A stretch of 64,000 bases of DNA. Source: a virus (lineage: Duplodnaviria > Caudoviricetes). The stretch lies in the IMG/VR virus record IMGVR_UViG_3300021255_002694; one strand, 5' to 3'. Shown here piece by piece: positions 23,104 to 64,000 of this stretch. Each line of letters starts with the position of its first letter. Within the stretch, counting starts at the first letter, position 1. The notes under the pieces are model-generated. The model was not told the origin of the DNA and ran no database searches. It worked only from the letters and a program-made list of their open reading frames with translations. A program made the position numbers and the translations under genes.

Positions 23104-24321
23104 ATGGGAAAATTCGTAAGTCTGTCTATGTTGAAGAATTATTCTCCATCACTTGTGAACAGAGATGATTCCGGTGATGCAAAACAGGTTGTTGTTGGTG
23201 GAGTAAACCGTGCTAGAATTTCAAGCCAATGCTTGAAGAGGGCTGTGCGAGAGGAAATCGGAAACAGAGGTATTACAACCGCACATCTTGAAGACCTTGT
23301 TGAGCAGATTCTTTCCGATGAGTGTGTAAAAGGAACTATCTCTGAATCTGATATTGAAACTATTGGAAAAGCCGTTTGCTGTGAAGATGTACTCAACTGT
23401 GATTGGTCTAAGAGAGCATCAAAGACTGGTGAGAAGAAAGATGATGACGGAAAAGGCAGAACAGTCAATCAGGTTAATATGGTTGAGATCGGAACTGTAA
23501 TTAGGGTTGCAATCGAAAACAAGGACGCAAATCAGAAGGAACTTGTTAAAGCGATTAGAAATGCTCTTAATGATGTAAGAATTTCTGTAGATAAAGCAAT
23601 GTTTGGAACAATGGCAACATCCGGTTTGATTGAGACTGTTGATGGTGCTGTTCAGGTTGCACAGACATTCAGCATTGATGAGTACATCCCCGAAGATGAT
23701 TTTATCGTAGCAAAATTCTCTGCTGAAAATACAGATGACTTTGATCCGTTTTTCGGTAGTTACAAGAAATTTGAGAATGACAACATGAGAAAAACAGGAA
23801 GTGAAACACTTGCAAGTTCATGTCTGCACTCTAACACAATGCTTACATGCACATCCGTGAATGTTACAGAACTTAAAAGAAATCTATCTAGCAGTATTCA
23901 GCATACAGCGATTGATGTTGAAAATATTGATTCTGATGTTGCAAAAAGTGTATGTGACTATATCGAAACTGTAATCACAGCAGAACCGTCCGCAAAACAG
24001 AATGCCATGTCTGCACACTCTGTTCCGGCAGTTGTATATATTGAAGTTATTGAAGATGGTGCTGTTAAGTATCCGCAAGGTTCTTTTGAAAAGATCGTAA
24101 GGAGAACGGAATCCGATTCTGTATCTGAAATCGGAATTAAGCGAATTTCAGAATTTGCTGCCGATGATACTTTCAGAACAGGTAACATTAAGAAGTATGT
24201 CATGCTTTCTGCACCGTATAAGCGTCTTGAAGATATGTTTACAGATTCCGGAGTTACTGTAATTAAGAATCTAAGTAATCTTAGAGAAATTCTTGGTTCG
24301 GATATTCTTGGCATGATTTAA
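23104..24321 (+). CDS. cas7: Type I-E Cas7 (Cse4/CasC)
   Basis: PS.VNRDDSG..K....GG..RARISSQC.KRA.R, D.AMFG.M, VDGAVQVA, PSAKQN motifs. Confidence 0.93.
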   Translation: MGKFVSLSMLKNYSPSLVNRDDSGDAKQVVVGGVNRARISSQCLKRAVREEIGNRGITTAHLEDLVEQILSDECVKGTISESDIETIGKAVCCEDVLNCDWSKRASKTGEKKDDDGKGRTVNQVNMVEIGTVIRVAIENKDANQKELVKAIRNALNDVRISVDKAMFGTMATSGLIETVDGAVQVAQTFSIDEYIPEDDFIVAKFSAENTDDFDPFFGSYKKFENDNMRKTGSETLASSCLHSNTMLTCTSVNVTELKRNLSSSIQHTAIDVENIDSDVAKSVCDYIETVITAEPSAKQNAMSAHSVPAVVYIEVIEDGAVKYPQGSFEKIVRRTESDSVSEIGIKRISEFAADDTFRTGNIKKYVMLSAPYKRLEDMFTDSGVTVIKNLSNLREILGSDILGMI

Positions 24322-24392
24322 ATGTACCGTGCATGGATTGAAGCTAAATAATTTTGTGTGACATGCATATCGAAATCCACGTATTTCATAGT

Positions 24393-25148
24393 CTTTTTCC
24401 CACGCACATGGGGGTTATCCTATGCAGGTTTCCATGCACCTGATTTTCTTCCACTTTTTCCCACGCACATGGGGGTTATCCTCAAGCAAAAGGTCCTGAT
24501 TACTTTGAAGATATCTTTTTCCCACGCACATGGGGGTTATCCTGCCATCTTACTGGTTTCATAAAATCAAATCCTCTTTTTCCCACGCACATGGGGGTTA
24601 TCCCATCTTTCAATTCCTCCTCTGGAATTAGTTTGACTTTTTCCCACTCACACGGGGGTTATCTCAAAATCAAGATATTCCTGCTGCTGCAATTCGGATT
24701 TTTCCAACTCATACGGGTGGTTATCCTTTTCCAGTGATCGGATCAAAACCATCCTTTAACTTTTTCCTACTTTCGTGGAGTTATCCCTATTACAGGACTT
24801 GCACAATCAATACCTGAACCTTTTTCCACTCGCGTGGTGGTTATCCGCATTCGAGTCTTTCAGTCTGTGTTCCAGTACAGCTTTTCCCACCTGCATGGGG
24901 GTTATCCTTACTAGAAGAATTCCTTTCATAATATGTCTCATTTTCCCACTCGAATTGGGTTATCCAGATATTCCACAGGTATTGGTCCAAATCCAAGTCT
25001 TTTTCTCCACACACATGGGGTTATCCTTGATTTGTCAGAGTTCCTGGTGTACAAGCACACTTTTTCCCATGCAAGTTGGGGGTTATCCTACTCTGCTGTT
25101 TTGATAATTGCATCCGTTGTCCTTTTCCCGTGCAAACGGGGGTTATCC
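24393..25148 (+). CRISPR. CRISPR array 1, type I-E: 13 repeats, 12 spacers of 33 nt; consensus CTTTTTCCCACGCACATGGGGGTTATCC
   Basis: R1-R4 identical 28-mers at 61-nt period (24393, 24454, 24515, 24576); R5-R13 degenerate but keep the TTTT start and GTTATCC-like end. Confidence 0.97.
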
Positions 25149-25170: not shown

Positions 25171-25692
25171 ATGAAATATATTAAGCTAATGTTTAAAGGT
25201 GTATTGCAGCATTACGCACCACCTAAATATGTTGTTATTGCACCATCAAGCACATATTATAGAACAGAGAGATGTCCAACAAAATCATCTATTGTAGGTC
25301 TTATTGGAGCATCTTCCGGATATGATAGAGATGATATTAGACTTATAGAATTAAAAAATAAAATTGACTGTAAGTATTCTATTATTAGAAATGGAACAGT
25401 TATTGTTGATTTTCAAACTGTAAGACCAATCGGTGATGAAAAATTCAGAAAAGTTGATGGTGGACTATCAACTGGTGCAATCATTAAGAAAGTTGAGTAT
25501 CTTCAAAATTATTCTTTTAATGTATATGTTGGTGCAGACGATGGAACTTTGAAACAGATTTACGATGCGCTTAGAAATCCTGTTTACCACCAATATTTTG
25601 GAAAAAGAAGTTGTGTTCCATCAGAACCTATTGTTACAGATTTTAATGTTGTTGATTTGGGGGTGCTTGAAAATGTATATGACTGTCCTTAA
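25171..25692 (+). CDS. cas5: Type I-E Cas5 (CasD), compact
   Basis: R.T..CPTKS.IVGLIGA..G..R, DFQTV, EYL...F, AL.NP....FG+RSC.PS.P. Confidence 0.9.
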   Translation: MKYIKLMFKGVLQHYAPPKYVVIAPSSTYYRTERCPTKSSIVGLIGASSGYDRDDIRLIELKNKIDCKYSIIRNGTVIVDFQTVRPIGDEKFRKVDGGLSTGAIIKKVEYLQNYSFNVYVGADDGTLKQIYDALRNPVYHQYFGKRSCVPSEPIVTDFNVVDLGVLENVYDCP

Positions 25693-26248
25693 AATTGATT
25701 TTGATTCACTTCAAACAAGATCATATCTTATGAAGATTGATGATGGTGATTTCATGCATAGATGGCTTACATCACAGATGGATTGTGAAAGAGTAGATCA
25801 GCATATTCTATACAGGGTTGACAAGTTTACAGACTCAATCTATATTTATATTCAATCTGACTCTGCATTCAATCTTAAAAATGTGCAGAAGTCTGGAATG
25901 AGTGTTGTTAAGCAGTTTGAAATTAACTGTGTCGGAGATAAAATCGCATTTGCTGTAAGATGTTTCCCGACTCACAGAGTAGGAGATAAAAGACTTTACA
26001 TCCTTAATACAGATGATCGCATGAACTATGTTAAAAGAATTTTATCGAGATATATTGATGTTGAGTCACTGACAGAAAATAGGTCTGCAATGTATTCAGT
26101 TAAAGGGAACGTAAAGTTGACATTTTGTGATTTCTCCGGTGTTGGAACTGTGAAGAACATGGGTAATTTTATGAATATTGTTAGGAATGGTATTGGAAAA
26201 TGCAAATGCTATGGCGCTGGAATGCTTCTTTTTAAGGGTGTGAATTGA
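25673..26248 (+). CDS. cas6e: Type I-E Cas6e (Cse3/CasE)
   Basis: MHR, ILYRVD, IQS motifs and C-terminal Gly-rich loop GIGKCKCYGAGML. Confidence 0.88.
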   Translation: MYMTVLKIDFDSLQTRSYLMKIDDGDFMHRWLTSQMDCERVDQHILYRVDKFTDSIYIYIQSDSAFNLKNVQKSGMSVVKQFEINCVGDKIAFAVRCFPTHRVGDKRLYILNTDDRMNYVKRILSRYIDVESLTENRSAMYSVKGNVKLTFCDFSGVGTVKNMGNFMNIVRNGIGKCKCYGAGMLLFKGVN

Positions 26249-28981
26249 GTGAAAAAATCTTGGTGTGTACTTGCATATGTGAATCCAACAAATGAAGTAA
26301 GAGGAAAAACAAGAAGATACCTCTATGAGGTCAAGCCAAATGTGTTTGTCGGTACTGTATCTACTTTAGTCAGAGAAACACTCTGGAATAAGATTAAAGA
26401 AACAAATACACTTGCTTCTATTATCTATTCAGCTAATACTGAACAGGGATTTAAGTCTGAAAGTACATACGGAGATGCAATGTTTTCGGATTTCGATGGA
26501 GTTATTCTTCCGACTTTTGAAAAAAGCATTCTGTCTGTAAAAGACATTTATGCAAAATCTGACGGCAAGAAACTGATTGATCATCTATTTGAAGCCGGAT
26601 ATATTGCACATGCACTTCTTACATATGGTAGAGGAAAGAATGCGATTCAACACATTGCAAAGTTGCTCAATGTAGATGTAGATAAACTAATTGATCTTAC
26701 TTGTTTTCTTATTGGAACGCATGATATCGGTAAAGCACATCCAACTTTTCAATTAAATCTAAATGATTCCAATACGTGCTGTGATGAAATTCATGACACA
26801 GTAATTAAACTCTTTCTCAGTGGATCATTCGATGTTACCGATAGCGGAGAAATGCGACATGAAAGATATTCAAGAGATATTTTATATGACTATTTTAATG
26901 ATCTTGGATTAGATGAATATTCATATGAATACCTTGCAGATATTATTGCATTTCACCATCAAGGCAAACTTGGAGATGCCGAAGAACTGACTGTATGTTA
27001 TGGATCAGAGACAGAAGATCGCTGGAAAGAGTGGAGAAATGTTCAGAGGCAGATGATTGAAAAAGTGCGATCAATCTGGAATATTGACACAGACTTCATC
27101 AAAAGCCTTGAGGATAAAAAATATACAAACGGTCTTTGTTACTTTATTCTTTCTGTAATGGTAACATCTGATTGGATTGTATCTGGAAAACATTTTGTGC
27201 AAACACTCAGTAATTGTAAAGGTGATATTGAAAAAGCCGCAAAAAGTTTTATCTGTACAAATCATTTAGATTGTTCTTCTATCAAGGATTCTTTGAAAAA
27301 TATATCTTGGGGTTCAGTATTTTCATTTGATAAGAATGCACTACAGACTTTTGTAACATCTGAAAAAGTTTCAGTAGATACTGATGAATGTCCGATGTAT
27401 GTTATCGAATATCCATGTGGCTATGGAAAGACCGAAGCCGCTCTTGCACTTGCGTTAAAAATCGGCGCAGATAAGAGTGGAATTTATCTCGCTGCACCTA
27501 CAATGTCTACAGCAAAAGGTCTTGCTAATAGATGCCGAGATATTGCAAAAAATGCCGGAATTGAAATGAACATTCCAGAGTTCGACAGCAGTATGATCTG
27601 GGAAGATAATGAGATGGAGAAAATTCCAAGAGAACTGTGGACGAGTAAGACAAGACATCAAATGCTTTATCCATTTGCTGTAGGAACTATTGACCAAGTT
27701 CTTAAATCTGTGATCAAGTATAGGTACTCATGTATCGGTATGCTCGGACTTTCAGATAAGGTCGTTATTATTGATGAAGTTCATGCCTATGATGCTTATA
27801 TGCTGACAGAACTTAAAACGCTGATTAGGTGGTGTAAGTTTCTAGGAGTTCCGATTATTCTTCTGTCTGCAACACTTCCAACTGAAACAAAACAGCAGTT
27901 GTTCTCTGCATCTGGAATAGCGACAGACATTAAAGAGTACAGCAATGAGTATCCACTTATCACATATGCATATAATGGAAAACTTATTCAGGAGCATATT
28001 GATTGTGTTGGAAAAGATGTGAACATTAAAACAGTTGAATCGAATGATATCATTGTGTCAATGCTGAATTCAGCAATGTCTGTTGAATCTGGATGTATTG
28101 CACTTATTGCACCGACAGTTGATGATGCTTTTGCACTGTATGATATGTTGAATGAAGAAGTGACTGATTGTGATGTTATTCTGTATCATGGAAGAATGTC
28201 AGTTTCGGATAAATCTGATAAGGTAAAAGAATTACTAAGACTTTTTGGAAAAGATAGATCAAATAGACCGAAGAAAGCCATTGTTGTTGCGACATCTATC
28301 ATCGAACAATCTCTTGATGTTGATTTTGACTATATGTTCACTGCGCTTGCTCCTATTGATCTTCTTATTCAAAGACTCGGCAGAGTTCACAGACATTCGG
28401 ATAAGGGAACTATTAGAGAGTTTACAAAAATCGACAGTCCTTTTACAGTAGTTATTCCAAGATCATATGATAATCTTGCAAGAATTTATGATTCGGAAAT
28501 TCTAAATAGAACTAAAACAGAACTATCTAAGATTAAAAAATTGAATACCGTTGATGACGTTCGGAGTATTATTGACAGTGCATATAATGGCTATTCTCCA
28601 CAGAGAGATAATATTTCTAGGATCAGAGCAAATTCTGTAACTTTGAATGATCCTGTAAAAAGAGATGCCATTGAAACATCTCCTGAAAATTATAGATCAT
28701 TCGATCCGGTTCTTCCAATAACAAGAGAAGAAAGATATCCTACAACTGATGTAATCATCATTCGTGAAATCAAAGATGAATATAGTTTTGCAGAAATTCG
28801 TGATATCATGTTGAATAACTGTATTAGCGTTGCTTCATACAAACTTAATCCGTTCCATGAACTTGCAATTACGGATTTTGAATTTTTTAGAGATGCAGAA
28901 ATATATGTCAGCGATAGCATGTTCATCACTTCCGGAGAGCATATTATGACACTTACAGGAGATGGGTTGAGGATTGAATGA
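26249..28981 (+). CDS. cas3: Cas2-Cas3 fusion: I-E-type Cas2 (about aa 1-90), HD nuclease, SF2 helicase
   Basis: N-terminal RG...RYLYEV.PNVFVG.VS..VRE.LW...NTEQGF...DFDG.IL (I-E Cas2); DHL, HDIGK, RHE, HHQG, SDW (HD); PCGYGKT, DEVH, SAT, QRLGRVHR (helicase). Confidence 0.93.
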   Translation: MKKSWCVLAYVNPTNEVRGKTRRYLYEVKPNVFVGTVSTLVRETLWNKIKETNTLASIIYSANTEQGFKSESTYGDAMFSDFDGVILPTFEKSILSVKDIYAKSDGKKLIDHLFEAGYIAHALLTYGRGKNAIQHIAKLLNVDVDKLIDLTCFLIGTHDIGKAHPTFQLNLNDSNTCCDEIHDTVIKLFLSGSFDVTDSGEMRHERYSRDILYDYFNDLGLDEYSYEYLADIIAFHHQGKLGDAEELTVCYGSETEDRWKEWRNVQRQMIEKVRSIWNIDTDFIKSLEDKKYTNGLCYFILSVMVTSDWIVSGKHFVQTLSNCKGDIEKAAKSFICTNHLDCSSIKDSLKNISWGSVFSFDKNALQTFVTSEKVSVDTDECPMYVIEYPCGYGKTEAALALALKIGADKSGIYLAAPTMSTAKGLANRCRDIAKNAGIEMNIPEFDSSMIWEDNEMEKIPRELWTSKTRHQMLYPFAVGTIDQVLKSVIKYRYSCIGMLGLSDKVVIIDEVHAYDAYMLTELKTLIRWCKFLGVPIILLSATLPTETKQQLFSASGIATDIKEYSNEYPLITYAYNGKLIQEHIDCVGKDVNIKTVESNDIIVSMLNSAMSVESGCIALIAPTVDDAFALYDMLNEEVTDCDVILYHGRMSVSDKSDKVKELLRLFGKDRSNRPKKAIVVATSIIEQSLDVDFDYMFTALAPIDLLIQRLGRVHRHSDKGTIREFTKIDSPFTVVIPRSYDNLARIYDSEILNRTKTELSKIKKLNTVDDVRSIIDSAYNGYSPQRDNISRIRANSVTLNDPVKRDAIETSPENYRSFDPVLPITREERYPTTDVIIIREIKDEYSFAEIRDIMLNNCISVASYKLNPFHELAITDFEFFRDAEIYVSDSMFITSGEHIMTLTGDGLRIE

Positions 28982-28983
28982 TG

Positions 28984-29940
28984 CTTTTCCTCACTTCACG
29001 GGGGTTATCCTACTGCCGCAACCTTGACTACAAGTTCAATGCACTTTTCCACACTGCATGTGGGTTATCCTATTAAGTTGCAAGTCAAGGAATTGAATTA
29101 CGTCTTTTTCCAACACACGGTGGTTATCCACCATGAGAACGATCCTGCGATACAGCGGTTGACTTTTCAAACGCACACGATGTGGGGGGGGGTATCCAAA
29201 ATCATGCACTGATCGAGTCAAACGGACATACCTTTTCCAACGCACACATGGGGGTTATCCTGGCTACCCTGTAAAATTACACTACTTTCAAATCTTTTCC
29301 CCATACATAGGGGGTTATCCTCTGCCAGTCGTGTCGTTTTCATACTCGTTTCAGTCTTTTCCATACATATTGGGGTTATCCAAAGTATTTATTGCTGTTG
29401 ACAAAAGAGCAAATCTTTTTCCACTTATATGGTGGTTATCCTGCCGAAGCTGGCAATGCACTAGGAAAAGGTCACTTTTCCCATTACACTGGGGTTATCC
29501 GTTGTCATTGTGATCTCTTGACCAAATCTATACTTTCCCATACACACATGGGTTATCCTGACATTACAGATAAGACAATGATTACTGCAATCTTTTTCTC
29601 ACACATACGAGTGGGGGTTATCCTGAAAGAATGGATATAAATGGGCAGAACGACAGTCCCACCCCCCCCAATACACATTGGGGGAGGGGGCTTATCCATT
29701 GTTTACTGATAGCGCAGTTTGAACTAATGACTTTTCACGTATACATGTGGGAGTTATCCTTCATTACAAAGTTCGTATGAGTTTGACTTAAACTTTTCCA
29801 CACACATAGGGGTGGTTATCCTCGATATTCGGTTTAGATATCAACCGATCAAGCATTTTCCCCATATACACGGGGGTTATCCGGAGATTGCCGATATTTA
29901 CATTGAAGCAACAAACTTTTCCCAATCACACAGGGGTTAT
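28984..29940 (+). CRISPR. CRISPR array 2: 16 repeats, all different, with 15 spacers of about 33 nt
   Basis: About 60-nt periodic CTTTTC...GGTTATCC units starting 2 nt after the cas3 stop; repeat lengths about 25-41 nt. Confidence 0.93.
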
Positions 29941-29976
29941 AATTATTACAATTTGGTTACAGATGTAAATAGACCA

Positions 29977-62087: not shown

Positions 62088-63368
62088 ATGAAGTATGTTA
62101 CAACTAAGGTCAGATTTGAAGAAATGGAAAAAGCACTTGCAAGAGTGTTTAAGAAGATGGATAAGATCGGTGCAACATACACATTTGAAAAACTCAATGA
62201 GTTTGTTCGTAATGTTCCGGTTTATAATGTAGATCACTATGAAAAGATCAAGTACGCTCGTCCGGCAGAGTTTGTCCGAGTTGAGTGTGTTGAATTTGAA
62301 CTTGACTTTGATACATACATTGTCGGTGATTACAGAGTTGGTGCAGTAGTCGAGAGAGTTGACGGCAATGAGAATCTTGTCTATGCTCTTGATGAAGCAG
62401 TCGATTTCAATGATTATGTTCACGCTGAACTCCGCTGTGATCACTGCAACAGAAAGCATACTCGCAATAAGACCATTGTTCTGATTGACAACAATACCGG
62501 AAATCAGGTAATGGTCGGTAAGGGTTGCCTGAACGAGTTTGTAGGTATCGGTGTTGAAAACTTTGCAAAGTACATTGAGGATGTTCAGGAATACATCAAT
62601 GAACTCGAAGATAGTCCTGTTCTCTATGGTGGTTGGACATATCATCCTTGCATCGAGCCGAAAACATATCTTGCGGCTTGCATCGAGATCATTGCAGATC
62701 GTGGATATTATAAAGAGTTGAAGTATGATGCTATTGACTGGATGAAGAAGAATACTCCGGCAGAGAAAAATCTTGCAGAAGCAGAAACAGTAATCAAGTA
62801 TTTTAAGAACCTTGATCCAACAGATGATTTTGACAACAATGCAAAAATCTATCTGACAGAGAAGAAAGCAACAACCAAAGCAAACGGATATATCGCATAC
62901 GCATACATCCGCTACTGCAAACTGGTTGAAAGAGAAATCGAGATTGCTAAGAGAGCAGAGGACAGAAAGAAGTCTCAGCATGTTGGCAATGTCGGTGATA
63001 AGATTACTGTTACTGGAAAGCCGTCTGTTGTAACATCTTGGCAGACTCAGTGGGGATATACCACGATCTATAAGATTGTTGATACTAATGGTAATGTCTA
63101 TATCTGGAAAACAAGCAATGATCTGGAAGCCTATGAGGAAGATGGTACTTGGGTTCCGGCTAATGACATGGAAGAAGTTACCGTTAAGGCAACAATTAAG
63201 GAACACAATGAGTACAATGGTGAGAAGCAGACTGTCATTACTCGTTGCAAGGTTATCGGATTTAAGAAGGTTGAGCCTGAAAAGACTGAAACCGCTGAGA
63301 ACAATGTAGAAGATGTTACAGATTGTTTTGATTCCATTGCAGAACTTATGAATGTGTGGGATGCATAA
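62088..63368 (+). CDS. Phage protein with CDHC...VG..C Zn motif and probable C-terminal OB fold
   Basis: CDHCN..H.R, VGKGCL; S.HVG.VGD+...GN...WKTS...KATIKEH.EY.G.KQT..TR. Confidence 0.7.
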   Translation: MKYVTTKVRFEEMEKALARVFKKMDKIGATYTFEKLNEFVRNVPVYNVDHYEKIKYARPAEFVRVECVEFELDFDTYIVGDYRVGAVVERVDGNENLVYALDEAVDFNDYVHAELRCDHCNRKHTRNKTIVLIDNNTGNQVMVGKGCLNEFVGIGVENFAKYIEDVQEYINELEDSPVLYGGWTYHPCIEPKTYLAACIEIIADRGYYKELKYDAIDWMKKNTPAEKNLAEAETVIKYFKNLDPTDDFDNNAKIYLTEKKATTKANGYIAYAYIRYCKLVEREIEIAKRAEDRKKSQHVGNVGDKITVTGKPSVVTSWQTQWGYTTIYKIVDTNGNVYIWKTSNDLEAYEEDGTWVPANDMEEVTVKATIKEHNEYNGEKQTVITRCKVIGFKKVEPEKTETAENNVEDVTDCFDSIAELMNVWDA

Positions 63369-63388
63369 AAACATCCCACACAGAATAC

Positions 63389-63480
63389 TGGCGGATGACA
63401 TAATCAAAGCATTTTGTTCTTTTCCACTATAGGGGGTTATCCACAGTGTGTTCGGGGTTCGAGTCCATGTTCGCCCATCA
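63389..63480 (+). pseudogene. tRNA-like scaffold (degenerate tRNA) containing a CRISPR repeat
   Basis: TGGCGGA/TTCGCCC acceptor-like stem, GGTTCGAGTCC T-loop, 3' ATCA; no canonical D or anticodon arm. Confidence 0.5.
63419..63442 (+). CRISPR. Solitary repeat of the same family as arrays 1 and 2
   Basis: CTTTTCCACTATAGGGGGTTATCC; compare array 2 R6 CTTTTCCCCATACATAGGGGGTTATCC. Confidence 0.75.
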
Positions 63481-63687
63481 GATCAAACATCACGGCTGTT
63501 GATATTAGGGTTGAAATAATGATAAGGTGGCTACGGTTTGTGGATAGGTAGTTGAAAGAACTCCCAAACCGCCCGATGTGTGATTAAATCGTTAGAGTTG
63601 CACATCTTAAATAGTCTTAACTCAAATCGAATCGCCTAATGTGATGCCTAGAAAATAAAACAGGGAATATCTAGGTTTATTTGATCT
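63480..63687 (+). ncRNA. Candidate ~208-nt structured non-coding RNA
   Basis: Six mutually compatible helices closed by AGATCAAA/TTTGATCT; no ORF of 60 aa or more. Confidence 0.5.
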
Positions 63688-63711
63688 AAACTTATATTGG
63701 AGGTAATAAAA

Positions 63712-64000
63712 ATGAAAGTTGTAACTAAAAAGATGTTTGATCGTTGGATCACCGATCTCTATGAATCCTGGTTAAACAGGGATATGAAAATCTATAAGAA
63801 CCTTGAATATCATACGGTTGACGCTAACACTGTATACATCATCAACAAGAAAACTGGAAAAACTGCTTATGCTCATGCACATCCTAATGATGTACCGTCC
63901 GTTACTGCTGGAATTGCCGTTGCGTGGGCAAGATACCGCAATATGGAAATCCCAAAGATCGGCAGACTTGTAACAGATGAATCTGATATCTTTGACTTGA
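63712..64000 (+). CDS. Partial hypothetical protein running off the window; paralog of 7344..7640
   Basis: GGAGG SD, ATG 63712, open to window end; HPND....GIAVAWARY. Confidence 0.65.
   Translation, partial: MKVVTKKMFDRWITDLYESWLNRDMKIYKNLEYHTVDANTVYIINKKTGKTAYAHAHPNDVPSVTAGIAVAWARYRNMEIPKIGRLVTDESDIFDL

What the first reader, a model, noticed from the sequence alone, without database searches (positions are those of the whole stretch)
63389..63480. Solitary CRISPR repeat embedded in a tRNA-like scaffold, 33 kb from the cas locus
Seen: CTTTTCCACTATAGGGGGTTATCC (63419-63442) has both conserved ends of the array repeats with a shortened centre. It lies between an acceptor-like 5' strand TGGCGGA (63389) and a tRNA 3' half (GGTTCGAGTCC T-loop, TTCGCCC-A-TCA), replacing the anticodon region. 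The 33 nt after the repeat (63443-63475) cover almost exactly that tRNA 3' half. Known: solitary repeat units on phages can act as RNA anti-CRISPRs or regulatory guides, and tRNA 3' ends are common integration sites. Inference, alternatives: (a) a one-repeat guide whose 3' end is made by tRNA-processing enzymes and which points Cascade at tRNA-gene/att sequences; (b) an RNA anti-CRISPR stabilised by a tRNA fold; (c) ectopic repeat insertion that destroyed a tRNA gene.
Basis: partly seen in the sequence, partly recalled or inferred. Interest (0 to 1): 0.8.

Follow-up and report, generated by a model that had tools for sequence, protein, structure and literature searches.

The report
CRISPR repeat grafted into phage tRNA
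In a rumen jumbo phage that carries its own CRISPR-Cas system, a methionine tRNA gene that is intact in sister phages has had its middle replaced by one copy of the phage's own CRISPR repeat; the lone repeat is conserved and found in RNA libraries, and may turn the leftover tRNA half into a guide against those sisters.

Summary
63419-63442 is a short member of the phage's own type I-E repeat family. A profile built from the 29 array repeats alone finds it at E 0.045, the only off-array hit above noise. It sits inside the remains of a tRNA-Met(CAT) gene. Sister phages carry an intact, compensatorily evolving tRNA-Met at exactly this place. Here the D and anticodon arms are replaced by 21 nt plus the repeat, and tRNA homology resumes right at the repeat's 3' end. 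The gene is no longer a tRNA (ARAGORN and Rfam find none; stem pairs are broken differently in each strain). The same graft occurs in assemblies from at least five studies. One more diverged allele (L023) has lost the tRNA remnants but keeps a fuller repeat. The repeat-bearing part changes less than silent codon positions, while the tRNA 3' half drifts. RNA-library contigs from two studies cover just this region. Function is unproven. My best guess (0.35) is that Cas6e cuts the repeat and leaves an 8-nt handle on a 32-nt tRNA-derived guide whose seed matches the intact tRNA of sister phages. Rivals are a functionless recombination scar (0.3), a decoy or regulator, and an RNA processing site. 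This scan noted similar tRNA/I-E-repeat chimeras in other huge phages. Unchecked here, these notes are leads, not support.

The parts
62012..62040 (+). Nearest upstream promoter of the phage's TTGACA-N17-TATACT class; presumed source of the transcript that carries the element
   Evidence: 11 of 12 consensus match; member of the 12-copy promoter family D1. No promoter-like site between it and the element.
62088..63368 (+). Upstream gene of unknown function (426 aa; 445 aa if started at 62031), used as the synteny anchor
   Evidence: phrog_2319, unknown function; homologues at 82-100% identity.
63353..63382 (+). Conserved hairpin across the stop codon, just before the (former) tRNA
   Evidence: Kept with compensatory or wobble changes in all relatives (alignments A1, A5, A6).
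63389..63397 (+). Remnant of tRNA-Met positions 1-9 (5' acceptor strand plus two bases); position 1 is mutated to T in this strain
   Evidence: Aligns with intact tRNAs; G at 63389 in L011, L022, X2 and X6.
63398..63418 (+). 21-nt filler with no source found; either a heavily decayed D arm or imported sequence
   Evidence: No match in the window or in the loci; identical in window, L011 and L022.
63419..63442 (+). Solitary CRISPR repeat unit of the phage's own type I-E repeat family, with a shortened centre
   Evidence: Orthologous units are in L011, L022 and L023.
63436..63443 (+). Predicted 8-nt crRNA 5' handle if Cas6e cuts as in E. coli type I-E (inferred by analogy, not shown)
   Evidence: The 13 bases 63432-63444 are identical in all five alleles, including L023.
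63444..63475 (+). 32-nt spacer-position segment, equal to tRNA-Met positions about 41-71 (variable loop, T arm, 3' acceptor strand)
   Evidence: Seed positions 1-5 and 7-8 match intact sister alleles; 3-4 mismatches in all. Diverges 15.8% between window and L011.
63480..63690 (+). Separate conserved ~208-nt non-coding element; not part of the graft (also found behind an intact tRNA in L014)
   Evidence: 3 of 231 changes; RNA contig 63484-63665; z -1.86.
25565..26248 (+). Cas6e gene (likely 191-aa form starting near 25673), the presumed partner of the solitary repeat
   Evidence: PF08798, E 3.6e-17; homologues are called as 191 aa.
24392..25148 (+). CRISPR array 1 (13 repeats) between cas7 and cas5
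28982..29941 (+). CRISPR array 2 (16 heterogeneous repeats) after the cas2-cas3 fusion; holds the repeat most like the solitary unit (29294-29320)

Best explanation
A tRNA-Met(CAT) gene of this rumen jumbo phage was rebuilt around one unit of the phage's own type I-E CRISPR repeat. The D and anticodon arms were replaced, and the repeat's 3' end was joined exactly to tRNA position about 40. This killed the tRNA (shown). The lone repeat has since been kept by selection (supported, not proven). It also appears in RNA libraries, consistent with co-transcription with the upstream gene; only contigs were available, so transcription is not proven. Inferred mechanism: the phage's Cas6e binds the small hairpin and cuts at its 3' base. 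That leaves the 8-nt handle 63436-63443 on the 32-nt tRNA remainder 63444-63475. Cascade loads this as a one-repeat crRNA whose seed matches the intact tRNA-Met allele of co-circulating sister phages, so Cascade-Cas3 can attack rivals that still have the tRNA. The phage's own copy is protected because the repeat replaces the PAM side. The graft most likely arose by recombination between a spacer against this tRNA in some array and the phage's own tRNA gene (inferred from the exact junction).
For: Origin:
- Intact tRNA-Met(CAT) sits at the same locus in L003, L004, L005, L006, L012, L013, L014 and L008. It has 22 pairs, 5 of them compensatory, and none broken in the acceptor, T or anticodon stems.
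- Homology to the tRNA resumes at 63444, one base after the repeat ends.

Selection:
- The same graft is found in window/L007, L011, L022 and runs X2 and X6, from different studies.
- Window versus L011: 1 change in 54 nt over 63389-63442, against 10.2% at third codon positions (P 0.02). The tRNA 3' half shows 6 of 38.
- Allele L023 has flanks about 40% different and no T arm or acceptor stem. It still keeps a fuller repeat with the same private loop motif and an identical handle: 2 of 22 changes versus 18-20 of 46 in the flanks, Fisher 0.01.

Expression:
- RNA-library contigs of two studies cover 63280/63290-63496 but not the flanking ORFs.

Guide:
- Each graft allele matches an intact sister allele with seed positions 1-5 and 7-8 perfect and 3-4 mismatches overall.
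- 3 of 6 derived changes fall on positions 12, 24 and 30, which Cascade flips out (PMC5965380).
- Unit-sized crRNAs work in E. coli type I-E without Cas6e (PMC4499155).
- A Cascade gene set (cas7, cas5 and cas6e by Pfam here; cas8e and cse2 by position only) plus Cas2-Cas3 is in the same genome.
Against: - No cleavage or Cascade loading is shown. The RNA contigs run uncut across the repeat and end at 63496, not at a unit-size end.
- There is no second repeat to make a 3' end.
- This strain's hairpin is the weakest of all alleles (-2.1 kcal/mol against -5.5 for the array consensus), and run X2 shows poly-G length variants in the stem.
- The spacer-position segment diverges at about the neutral rate (15.8%). 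Position 11 changed twice, and the 6-nt periodicity is only P about 0.05 with a register chosen by analogy.
- In L023 a deletion has removed most of the tRNA-derived segment while the repeat stays, so the repeat's value cannot lie only in this guide.
- The base after the repeat is A, whereas the intact tRNA has C there. The candidate PAM AAC is untested; array spacers mostly begin with T.
- A T-arm hairpin lies inside the would-be guide.
Confidence: 0.35

Rival explanations
1. Functionless scar. The graft is a relic of illegitimate or spacer-protospacer recombination (perhaps an escape from a rival's CRISPR targeting of the tRNA gene). The repeat unit now does nothing. Its apparent conservation reflects recent spread by recombination, small numbers, or occasional gene conversion from the arrays.
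For: - The tRNA is dead and its remaining stems break differently per strain.
- The window's hairpin is degraded (-2.1 kcal/mol), with indels and poly-G slippage in the stem.
- There is no own promoter and no second repeat.
- The conservation tests are modest (P 0.02 and 0.01).
- The locus is mosaic: states with and without the graft occur at the same flank divergence, so recombination is frequent.
Against: - The segment immediately next to the repeat (63443-63480) is 15.8% diverged between window and L011, while the repeat-bearing 54 nt has one change. A recent sweep would have carried both.
- L023 keeps handle and hairpin through about 40% flank divergence and a deletion of the tRNA remnant. 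It shares a loop motif absent from the array repeats, which argues against refreshment by array conversion.
- The region is present in RNA libraries of two studies.
Confidence: 0.3
2. Decoy or regulator (Racr-like). The transcribed lone repeat binds Cas6e, and its handle binds Cas5/Cas7. This titrates or tunes Cascade assembly, either of the phage's own system (dosage or timing control) or of the near-identical systems of rival sister phages or the host.
For: - Viral solitary repeat units act as RNA anti-CRISPRs by binding Cas6 and Cas7 (PMC10651486).
- The handle and the C-run/G-run stem are the conserved parts, and the downstream segment is dispensable in L023.
- The unit can be co-transcribed with neighbouring genes, as RacrIC1 is with AcrIC5.
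- Cas6e homologues are present in only some sister phages.
Against: - The repeat matches the phage's own arrays, and the cas genes lie 33 kb away in the same genome, so a decoy would blunt the phage's own system. Described SRUs are defined as not associated with cas genes and usually follow their own promoter; no promoter is found here.
- One weak hairpin copy would have to compete with 29 array repeats.
Confidence: 0.2
3. RNA punctuation. The tRNA in sister phages served as an RNase P/Z processing signal between the upstream mRNA and the downstream non-coding RNA or gene. In this lineage a Cas6e site has taken over that role, cutting the operon transcript and capping the upstream fragment with bound Cas6e.
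For: - Either a tRNA or the repeat occupies the same position in the transcript in all close relatives.
- There is no promoter between the upstream gene and the next gene.
- RNA contigs show a discrete, relatively abundant piece around the element.
Against: No precedent that I could find for a natural Cas6e site replacing a tRNA as punctuation. The RNA contigs span the repeat uncut. The idea does not explain the exact junction at the repeat end, or why the handle (needed for Cascade, not for Cas6e cleavage) is the most conserved part.
Confidence: 0.1

Closest known systems
Viral solitary repeat units / RNA anti-CRISPRs (Faure et al. 2019; Camara-Wilpert et al. 2023, PMC10651486)
   Same: A single CRISPR repeat in an intergenic region of a phage genome. 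No partial repeat nearby, transcribed, hairpin plus handle retained.
   Different: Here the repeat belongs to the phage's own arrays and cas genes (33 kb away). It has no promoter of its own. It lies inside a former tRNA gene, and a spacer-length stretch of conserved phage sequence follows it. Inhibition was not tested.
Canonical type I-E crRNA, and unit-sized crRNAs made without Cas6e (Semenova et al. 2015, PMC4499155)
   Same: Repeat-derived 8-nt handle followed by 32 nt. The phage carries a Cascade gene set plus Cas3. In E. coli, 3' ends made by other means still give working Cascade.
   Different: Only one repeat, so there is no 3' hairpin. The 3' end is undefined (RNA contigs end 21 nt past 63475). 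The guide sequence is the phage's own tRNA remnant rather than an acquired spacer.
Virus-borne mini-CRISPR arrays used in conflicts between viruses (e.g. Saccharolobus viruses SPV1/SPV2, Medvedeva et al. 2019; huge-phage arrays, Al-Shayeb et al. 2020; own knowledge)
   Same: Phage-encoded guides aimed at close relatives. The target is a sequence conserved among competitors.
   Different: Those have a leader and at least two repeats. This is one repeat embedded in a gene, with the native locus itself supplying the guide.
Recombination between spacers and phage protospacers (Varble et al. 2019, Nat Microbiol; own knowledge, not read here)
   Same: Would explain a repeat joined exactly at the start of a protospacer-length stretch of phage DNA.
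   Different: The known cases move host CRISPR loci by transduction. Here the product is a stable, conserved replacement inside a phage tRNA gene. No donor array was found.
Synthetic polycistronic tRNA-gRNA arrays (Xie et al. 2015, PNAS; own knowledge)
   Same: Guide RNA joined to tRNA sequence, so that tRNA-processing enzymes could define an end.
   Different: The synthetic designs use complete, foldable tRNAs. Here the tRNA is broken, its stems are decaying, and allele L023 lacks them altogether.
crRNA-like regulators (CreA/CreR; crlRNAs, bioRxiv 10.1101/2024.12.27.630466)
   Same: Degenerate repeat plus a pseudo-spacer outside an array, acting through Cascade.
   Different: Those carry a partial match to a promoter in the same genome. 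No partial target was found in this 64-kb window.

Membership tests
tRNA (Rfam RF00005; ARAGORN) | Cloverleaf detected by a tRNA model, with D arm and anticodon arm | tested here: not met
   ARAGORN finds 0 genes in the window and in L007 and L011. Rfam gives no tRNA hit even at E<=10 on 63300-63760. The D and anticodon arms are replaced.
tRNA (Rfam RF00005; ARAGORN) | Intact 7-bp acceptor stem and 5-bp T stem | tested here: not met
   Window: pair 1-72 is T/C, 6-67 is G/T, and T-stem 51-63 is G/A. L011: 4-69 is C/A and 50-64 is T/T. The six intact sister tRNAs have none broken.
Repeat family of this phage's type I-E arrays | Sequence match to a profile of the array repeats, including the invariant handle columns | tested here: met
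   nhmmer E 0.045 in the window and 0.009 for the L011/L022 alleles. All invariant and nearly invariant columns are kept.
Repeat family of this phage's type I-E arrays | Stem-loop comparable to array repeats | tested here: inconclusive
   MFE is -2.1 (window), -4.9 (L011/L022) and -6.6 (L023), against -5.5 to -9.2 kcal/mol for array repeats.
Repeat family of this phage's type I-E arrays | Regular repeat-spacer periodicity (member of an array) | tested here: not met
   No second profile hit within 33 kb in the window, and none in the flanks of L011, L022 or L023.
Solitary repeat unit / Racr (PMC10651486) | Lone repeat in a viral intergenic region with no partial repeat within 100 bp | tested here: met
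Solitary repeat unit / Racr (PMC10651486) | Not associated with cas genes; mimics the host's repeats | tested here: not met
   The same genome carries Cas7e, Cas5e, Cas6e, Cas2-Cas3 and two arrays of this repeat family. The host and its repeats are unknown.
Solitary repeat unit / Racr (PMC10651486) | Own promoter immediately upstream | tested here: not met
   The only strong promoter is at 62012-62040, 1.4 kb upstream.
Solitary repeat unit / Racr (PMC10651486) | Inhibits CRISPR-Cas by binding Cas proteins | not testable with these tools
   Needs interference assays and pull-downs.
Type I-E crRNA gene | Handle plus about 32-nt guide with a seed-matched target | tested here: met
   For 63444-63475, seed positions 1-5 and 7-8 match the intact alleles L012 and L004. 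The L011 allele matches L003.
Type I-E crRNA gene | Functional PAM beside the target | tested here: inconclusive
   The target flank is AAC. No protospacer of any array spacer was found from which to derive this system's PAM.
Type I-E crRNA gene | Processing by Cas6e at both ends and loading into Cascade | not testable with these tools
   Only contigs of RNA libraries were available. They span the repeat and cannot show ends.
crRNA-like regulator (CreA/CreR/crlRNA) | Partial match of the pseudo-spacer to a promoter in the same genome | tested here: not met
   No other match of the first 15 nt with up to 3 mismatches in the 64-kb window. The rest of the ~323-kb genome was not available.

The most novel reading that the evidence does not exclude
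Huge phages that carry their own type I-E CRISPR-Cas convert their own tRNA genes into single-repeat guide genes. Grafting one repeat at a former protospacer erases the phage's own target site and makes the remaining tRNA half a ready-made crRNA against sister phages that still have the intact tRNA. This would be a heritable, adaptation-independent weapon (no cas1 is seen here) that recurs in unrelated huge phages.
Probability: 0.25. Interest if true: 0.85.

Novelty: new variant of a known kind. Interest (0 to 1): 0.65.

Why it matters
Lone CRISPR repeats on phages are known as decoys against host immunity. Here the lone repeat belongs to the phage's own CRISPR-Cas system. It sits precisely inside a gene that close competitors keep intact, and it is conserved while the rest of that gene decays. 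If it yields a guide, it shows two things. Guides can be created without Cas1-Cas2 adaptation, by recombination at a target. And phage tRNA genes, the most conserved nucleotides shared by related phages, are battlegrounds of phage-against-phage CRISPR warfare. If it is a decoy or a processing site, it is still a new use of a repeat in cis to its own cas genes. Either way the locus offers a small, clean test system: one RNA, one Cas6e and one target allele.

Tried and rejected
- Rfam at gathering threshold on the whole window and at E<=10 on 63300-63760: no tRNA, tmRNA or CRISPR family.
- Minimum-free-energy fold of 63385-63482: no better than shuffles (z +0.47), and the cloverleaf is not recovered.
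- Phage GenBank collection, blastn with 62000-64000: no match.
- IMG/VR pattern scans for the repeat-tRNA junction, the array repeat and the solitary-repeat motif: nothing. An IMG/VR protein scan gave only distant loci without tRNA.
- Own genome not held; records behind the loci not held. I therefore could not check whether graft-bearing relatives carry the cas locus, or whether this phage has another tRNA-Met.
- Genome-contig scan with the tRNA 3' end pattern: more than 100 hits in Alphaproteobacteria, Anaerolineae and others. The pattern is a generic tRNA end and gives no host or att information.
- BLAST of the 21-nt filler and the 208-nt element against the window and loci: no source found.
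- All 27 array spacers against the window and 23 loci: no protospacer, so no PAM could be derived.
- Search for partial self-targets of the pseudo-spacer in the window: none.
- PDB sequence search with Cas6e: no hit, so catalytic residues were not checked.
- The JGI metagenome scan gave only L014 as a useful locus.
- RNA contigs do not cover the flanking ORFs in runs X9 and X16. Being contigs, they cannot give levels, strand or true ends. I use the shared stop at 63496 only as a weak hint.
- Considered and rejected: a group I or other intron in the tRNA (the insert is only about 45 nt and the anticodon loop is gone); a tmRNA-like element (no model hit); a tRNA with a long variable arm (no D arm).

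Full report
WHAT IS THERE

The window is part of a large phage; the contig that carries the identical flanking protein is 323.5 kb. Nearly all genes lie on the + strand, and there are twelve copies of a TTGACA-N17-TATACT promoter. It encodes a type I-E-like CRISPR-Cas set:
- Cas7e at 23104-24321
- array 1 at 24392-25148
- Cas5e
- Cas6e at 25565-26248
- a Cas2-Cas3 fusion at 26249-28981
- array 2 at 28982-29941

The repeats are heterogeneous. All keep a T-rich 5' end, a C-run/G-run stem and the 3' handle GGTTATCC.

A profile built from the 29 array repeats alone finds it at E 0.045. It is the only hit outside the arrays above noise, and it scores above two genuine array repeats. It shares an exact 14-mer with the array-2 repeat at 29307-29320 and keeps every invariant or nearly invariant repeat column. 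Only its centre is 3-5 nt shorter.

WHAT THE SCAFFOLD IS

ARAGORN finds no tRNA in the window. Rfam finds no tRNA even at E<=10 on the 461 bases around the site. The local fold is no better than shuffled sequence (z +0.47).

Homologues of the upstream 426/445-aa protein led to the orthologous locus in metagenome assemblies. Four states exist (alignments A1, A3, A5, A6):

| State | Content after the upstream gene | Loci |
|---|---|---|
| A | Intact tRNA-Met(CAT) directly after the conserved hairpin that ends the upstream gene | L003, L004, L005, L006, L012, L013, and the 53%-identity relative L008 |
| B | Intact tRNA plus a ~208-nt non-coding element | L014 |
| C | The graft seen here plus the 208-nt element | window, L007, L011, L022, and the DNA contigs of runs X2 and X6 |
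| D | Neither tRNA remnant, nor the 208-nt element, nor the next gene; a fuller solitary repeat, then an AT-rich stretch and a strong terminator hairpin | L023 |

ARAGORN calls the tRNA in every state A and B locus and in none of states C and D. The six intact tRNAs fold into a cloverleaf with 22 pairs. Five of these pairs show compensatory changes, and none is broken in the acceptor, anticodon or T stems. The intact tRNA is therefore a working, selected gene in sister phages. The scaffold here is its wreck.

ANATOMY OF THE GRAFT

- tRNA positions 1-9 remain at 63389-63397.
- Next come 21 nt with no identifiable source (63398-63418).
- Next comes the repeat (63419-63442).
- Homology to the tRNA resumes at 63444, one base after the repeat's end. 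It runs through the variable loop, T arm and 3' acceptor strand to 63477.

The right-hand junction thus coincides with the repeat/spacer boundary, while the left-hand one does not. That asymmetry is what recombination between an array spacer derived from this tRNA and the phage's own tRNA gene would give. No donor array was found, so this origin is an inference.

The 208-nt element is a separate matter, because L014 has it behind an intact tRNA.

IS THE REPEAT KEPT BY SELECTION?

Third codon positions of the flanking genes differ by 8-11.5% between the window and L011 (pooled 10.2%). Against that proxy:

| Segment | Changes | Test against the neutral proxy |
|---|---|---|
| 63389-63442 (5' strand, filler, repeat) | 1 substitution and 1 single-base indel in 54 nt | P 0.02 |
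| 208-nt element plus ribosome-binding site | 3 of 231 | P 5e-8 |
| tRNA 3' half, lying between them | 6 of 38 (15.8%) | not different from neutral |

The 3' half is significantly more diverged than the rest of the intergenic region (Fisher 0.0003). A recent sweep of the whole segment cannot produce this conserved-variable-conserved pattern.

The stem-breaking changes differ by strain:
- window: 1-72 T/C and 51-63 G/A
- L011: 4-69 C/A and 50-64 T/T
- X2: 53-61 G/T

So the tRNA fold is not maintained.

L023 has the same flank-gene divergence as L011 (10.8% at third positions). Yet its 34 nt before and 12 nt after the repeat differ from the window at about 40%. The repeat itself differs at 2 of 22 aligned positions plus two indels. 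It keeps an identical 13-nt handle stretch and shares a loop motif (ACTAT) that no array repeat has (Fisher 0.01). That private motif argues for orthology of the solitary units and against recent copying from the arrays.

On the other side, the window's own hairpin is the weakest: -2.1 kcal/mol, against -4.9 in L011/L022, -6.6 in L023 and -5.5 for the array consensus. Run X2 shows poly-G length variants in the stem. I put the chance that the solitary repeat is a selected, working element at about 0.65.

RNA

Two metatranscriptome runs from different studies hold contigs of 63280-63496 and 63290-63496. One of the runs is from the probable source sample, and it also holds 63484-63665. Neither run has anything on the flanking coding sequence within 62900-63999, whereas DNA runs cover the whole stretch.

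These are contigs, so they show presence in RNA libraries but not levels, strand or true ends. The common stop at 63496 is only a weak hint of an RNA end. They span the repeat uncut. No promoter-like site lies between the 62012-62040 promoter and the element, so it is presumably made as part of the upstream gene's transcript.

THE GUIDE READING, TESTED

By analogy with E. coli type I-E (29-nt repeat, 8-nt handle, 32-nt spacer), Cas6e cleavage would leave the handle 63436-63443 on 63444-63475.

In that register each graft allele matches a co-circulating intact allele with a perfect seed (positions 1-5 and 7-8) and few mismatches:
- window against L012: mismatches at 6, 11, 24
- L022 against L004: mismatches at 6, 11, 24
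- L011 against L003: mismatches at 11, 12, 24, 30

In Cascade the bases at positions 6, 12, 18, 24 and 30 are flipped out and do not pair (PMC5965380). Of six inferred derived substitution events, three fall on such positions. That gives P 0.05, or 0.007 if position 6 is counted. The result is suggestive only, because the numbers are small and the register was set by analogy.

Unit-sized crRNAs function in E. coli type I-E without Cas6e (PMC4499155), so a missing downstream repeat is not by itself fatal.

Points against:
- There is no evidence of cleavage.
- The PAM is unknown. The target flank is AAC, and no protospacers of array spacers were found.
- Position 11 changed twice.
- A T-arm hairpin lies inside the guide.
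- L023 has deleted most of the tRNA-derived segment yet keeps the repeat.

I give this mechanism 0.35.

RIVALS

- Functionless scar: 0.3.
- Racr-like decoy or regulator acting on Cas6e/Cascade: 0.2. This is awkward because the repeat is the phage's own and the cas genes are in cis, unlike described solitary repeat units (PMC10651486).
- Cas6e site replacing the tRNA as transcript punctuation: 0.1.

Close Cas6e homologues fall into only about a dozen clusters. The 326-kb and 313-kb sister contigs that carry the flanking gene do not appear among their longest contigs. This weakly suggests the cas island is variably present among sister phages, which is the setting a phage-against-phage weapon needs.

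COMPARISON AND NOVELTY

The element works most like a viral solitary repeat unit. It fails two of that family's defining features: no cas genes in the genome, and an own promoter. It also differs in being grafted into a gene at a protospacer-like boundary. It is not a tRNA and not an array member.

I found no paper describing a natural CRISPR repeat inside a tRNA gene. This scan's notes record similar tRNA/type I-E-repeat chimeras in 437-kb and 444-kb phages, and a repeat fused to a tRNA-Met 3' half in a cyanophage. Those are unchecked AI notes and count as leads, not support. They do suggest the phenomenon recurs.

I rate it a new variant of a known kind, with interest 0.65.

LIMITS

- Only 64 kb of this genome and +-1.5-3 kb of each relative were readable.
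- All functional steps (Cas6e binding, cleavage, Cascade loading, interference) are inferred.

Noticed in passing
window 63480-63690: A ~208-nt non-coding element with 3 of 231 changes between window and L011, where third codon positions differ about 10%. It is also present behind an intact tRNA-Met in L014 and absent from L003, L004, L006 and L012. An RNA-library contig covers 63484-63665. There is no Rfam hit, and the fold z-score is -1.86. It looks like an independent, conserved, possibly mobile structured RNA.
   Followed up: partly
window 63353-63382: A hairpin spanning the stop codon of the upstream gene is kept in all relatives with compensatory or wobble changes. It lies directly before the tRNA or the graft and has no U-tract after it.
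   Followed up: no
window 63431-63436 (run X2); compare 29162-29197 and 29657-29697: DNA contigs of run X2 show poly-G length variants (+3 or +4 G) inside the solitary repeat and break there. Two array-2 repeats carry similar G-run/C-run expansions on both stem arms.
   Followed up: no
L023:2860-2985: In this allele the solitary repeat is followed by about 48 AT-rich nt and a long terminator hairpin. The 148-aa gene that follows the locus elsewhere is missing. This gives a compact repeat-plus-terminator unit.
   Followed up: partly
window 57343-58341: A Thg1-like tRNA-His guanylyltransferase gene (phrog_4717, E 3e-73), although no tRNA gene is detected anywhere in this 64-kb window.
   Followed up: no
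window 62012-62088: The strong promoter 62012-62040 lies inside the 445-aa ORF call (start 62031). The 426-aa form starting at 62088, as called in several assemblies, is the likelier gene.
   Followed up: no
window 25565-26248: Cas6e homologues of sister phages are only 76-90% identical, while the flanking 426-aa protein is 85-97%. Two near-complete sister contigs (326 kb, 313 kb) do not appear among the Cas6e-bearing contigs. The cas island may be fast-evolving and variably present.
   Followed up: partly
L003:1-449: A sister phage carries an IS605-type OrfB/TnpB gene a few kb upstream of the tRNA locus. This window has none in the corresponding place.
   Followed up: no
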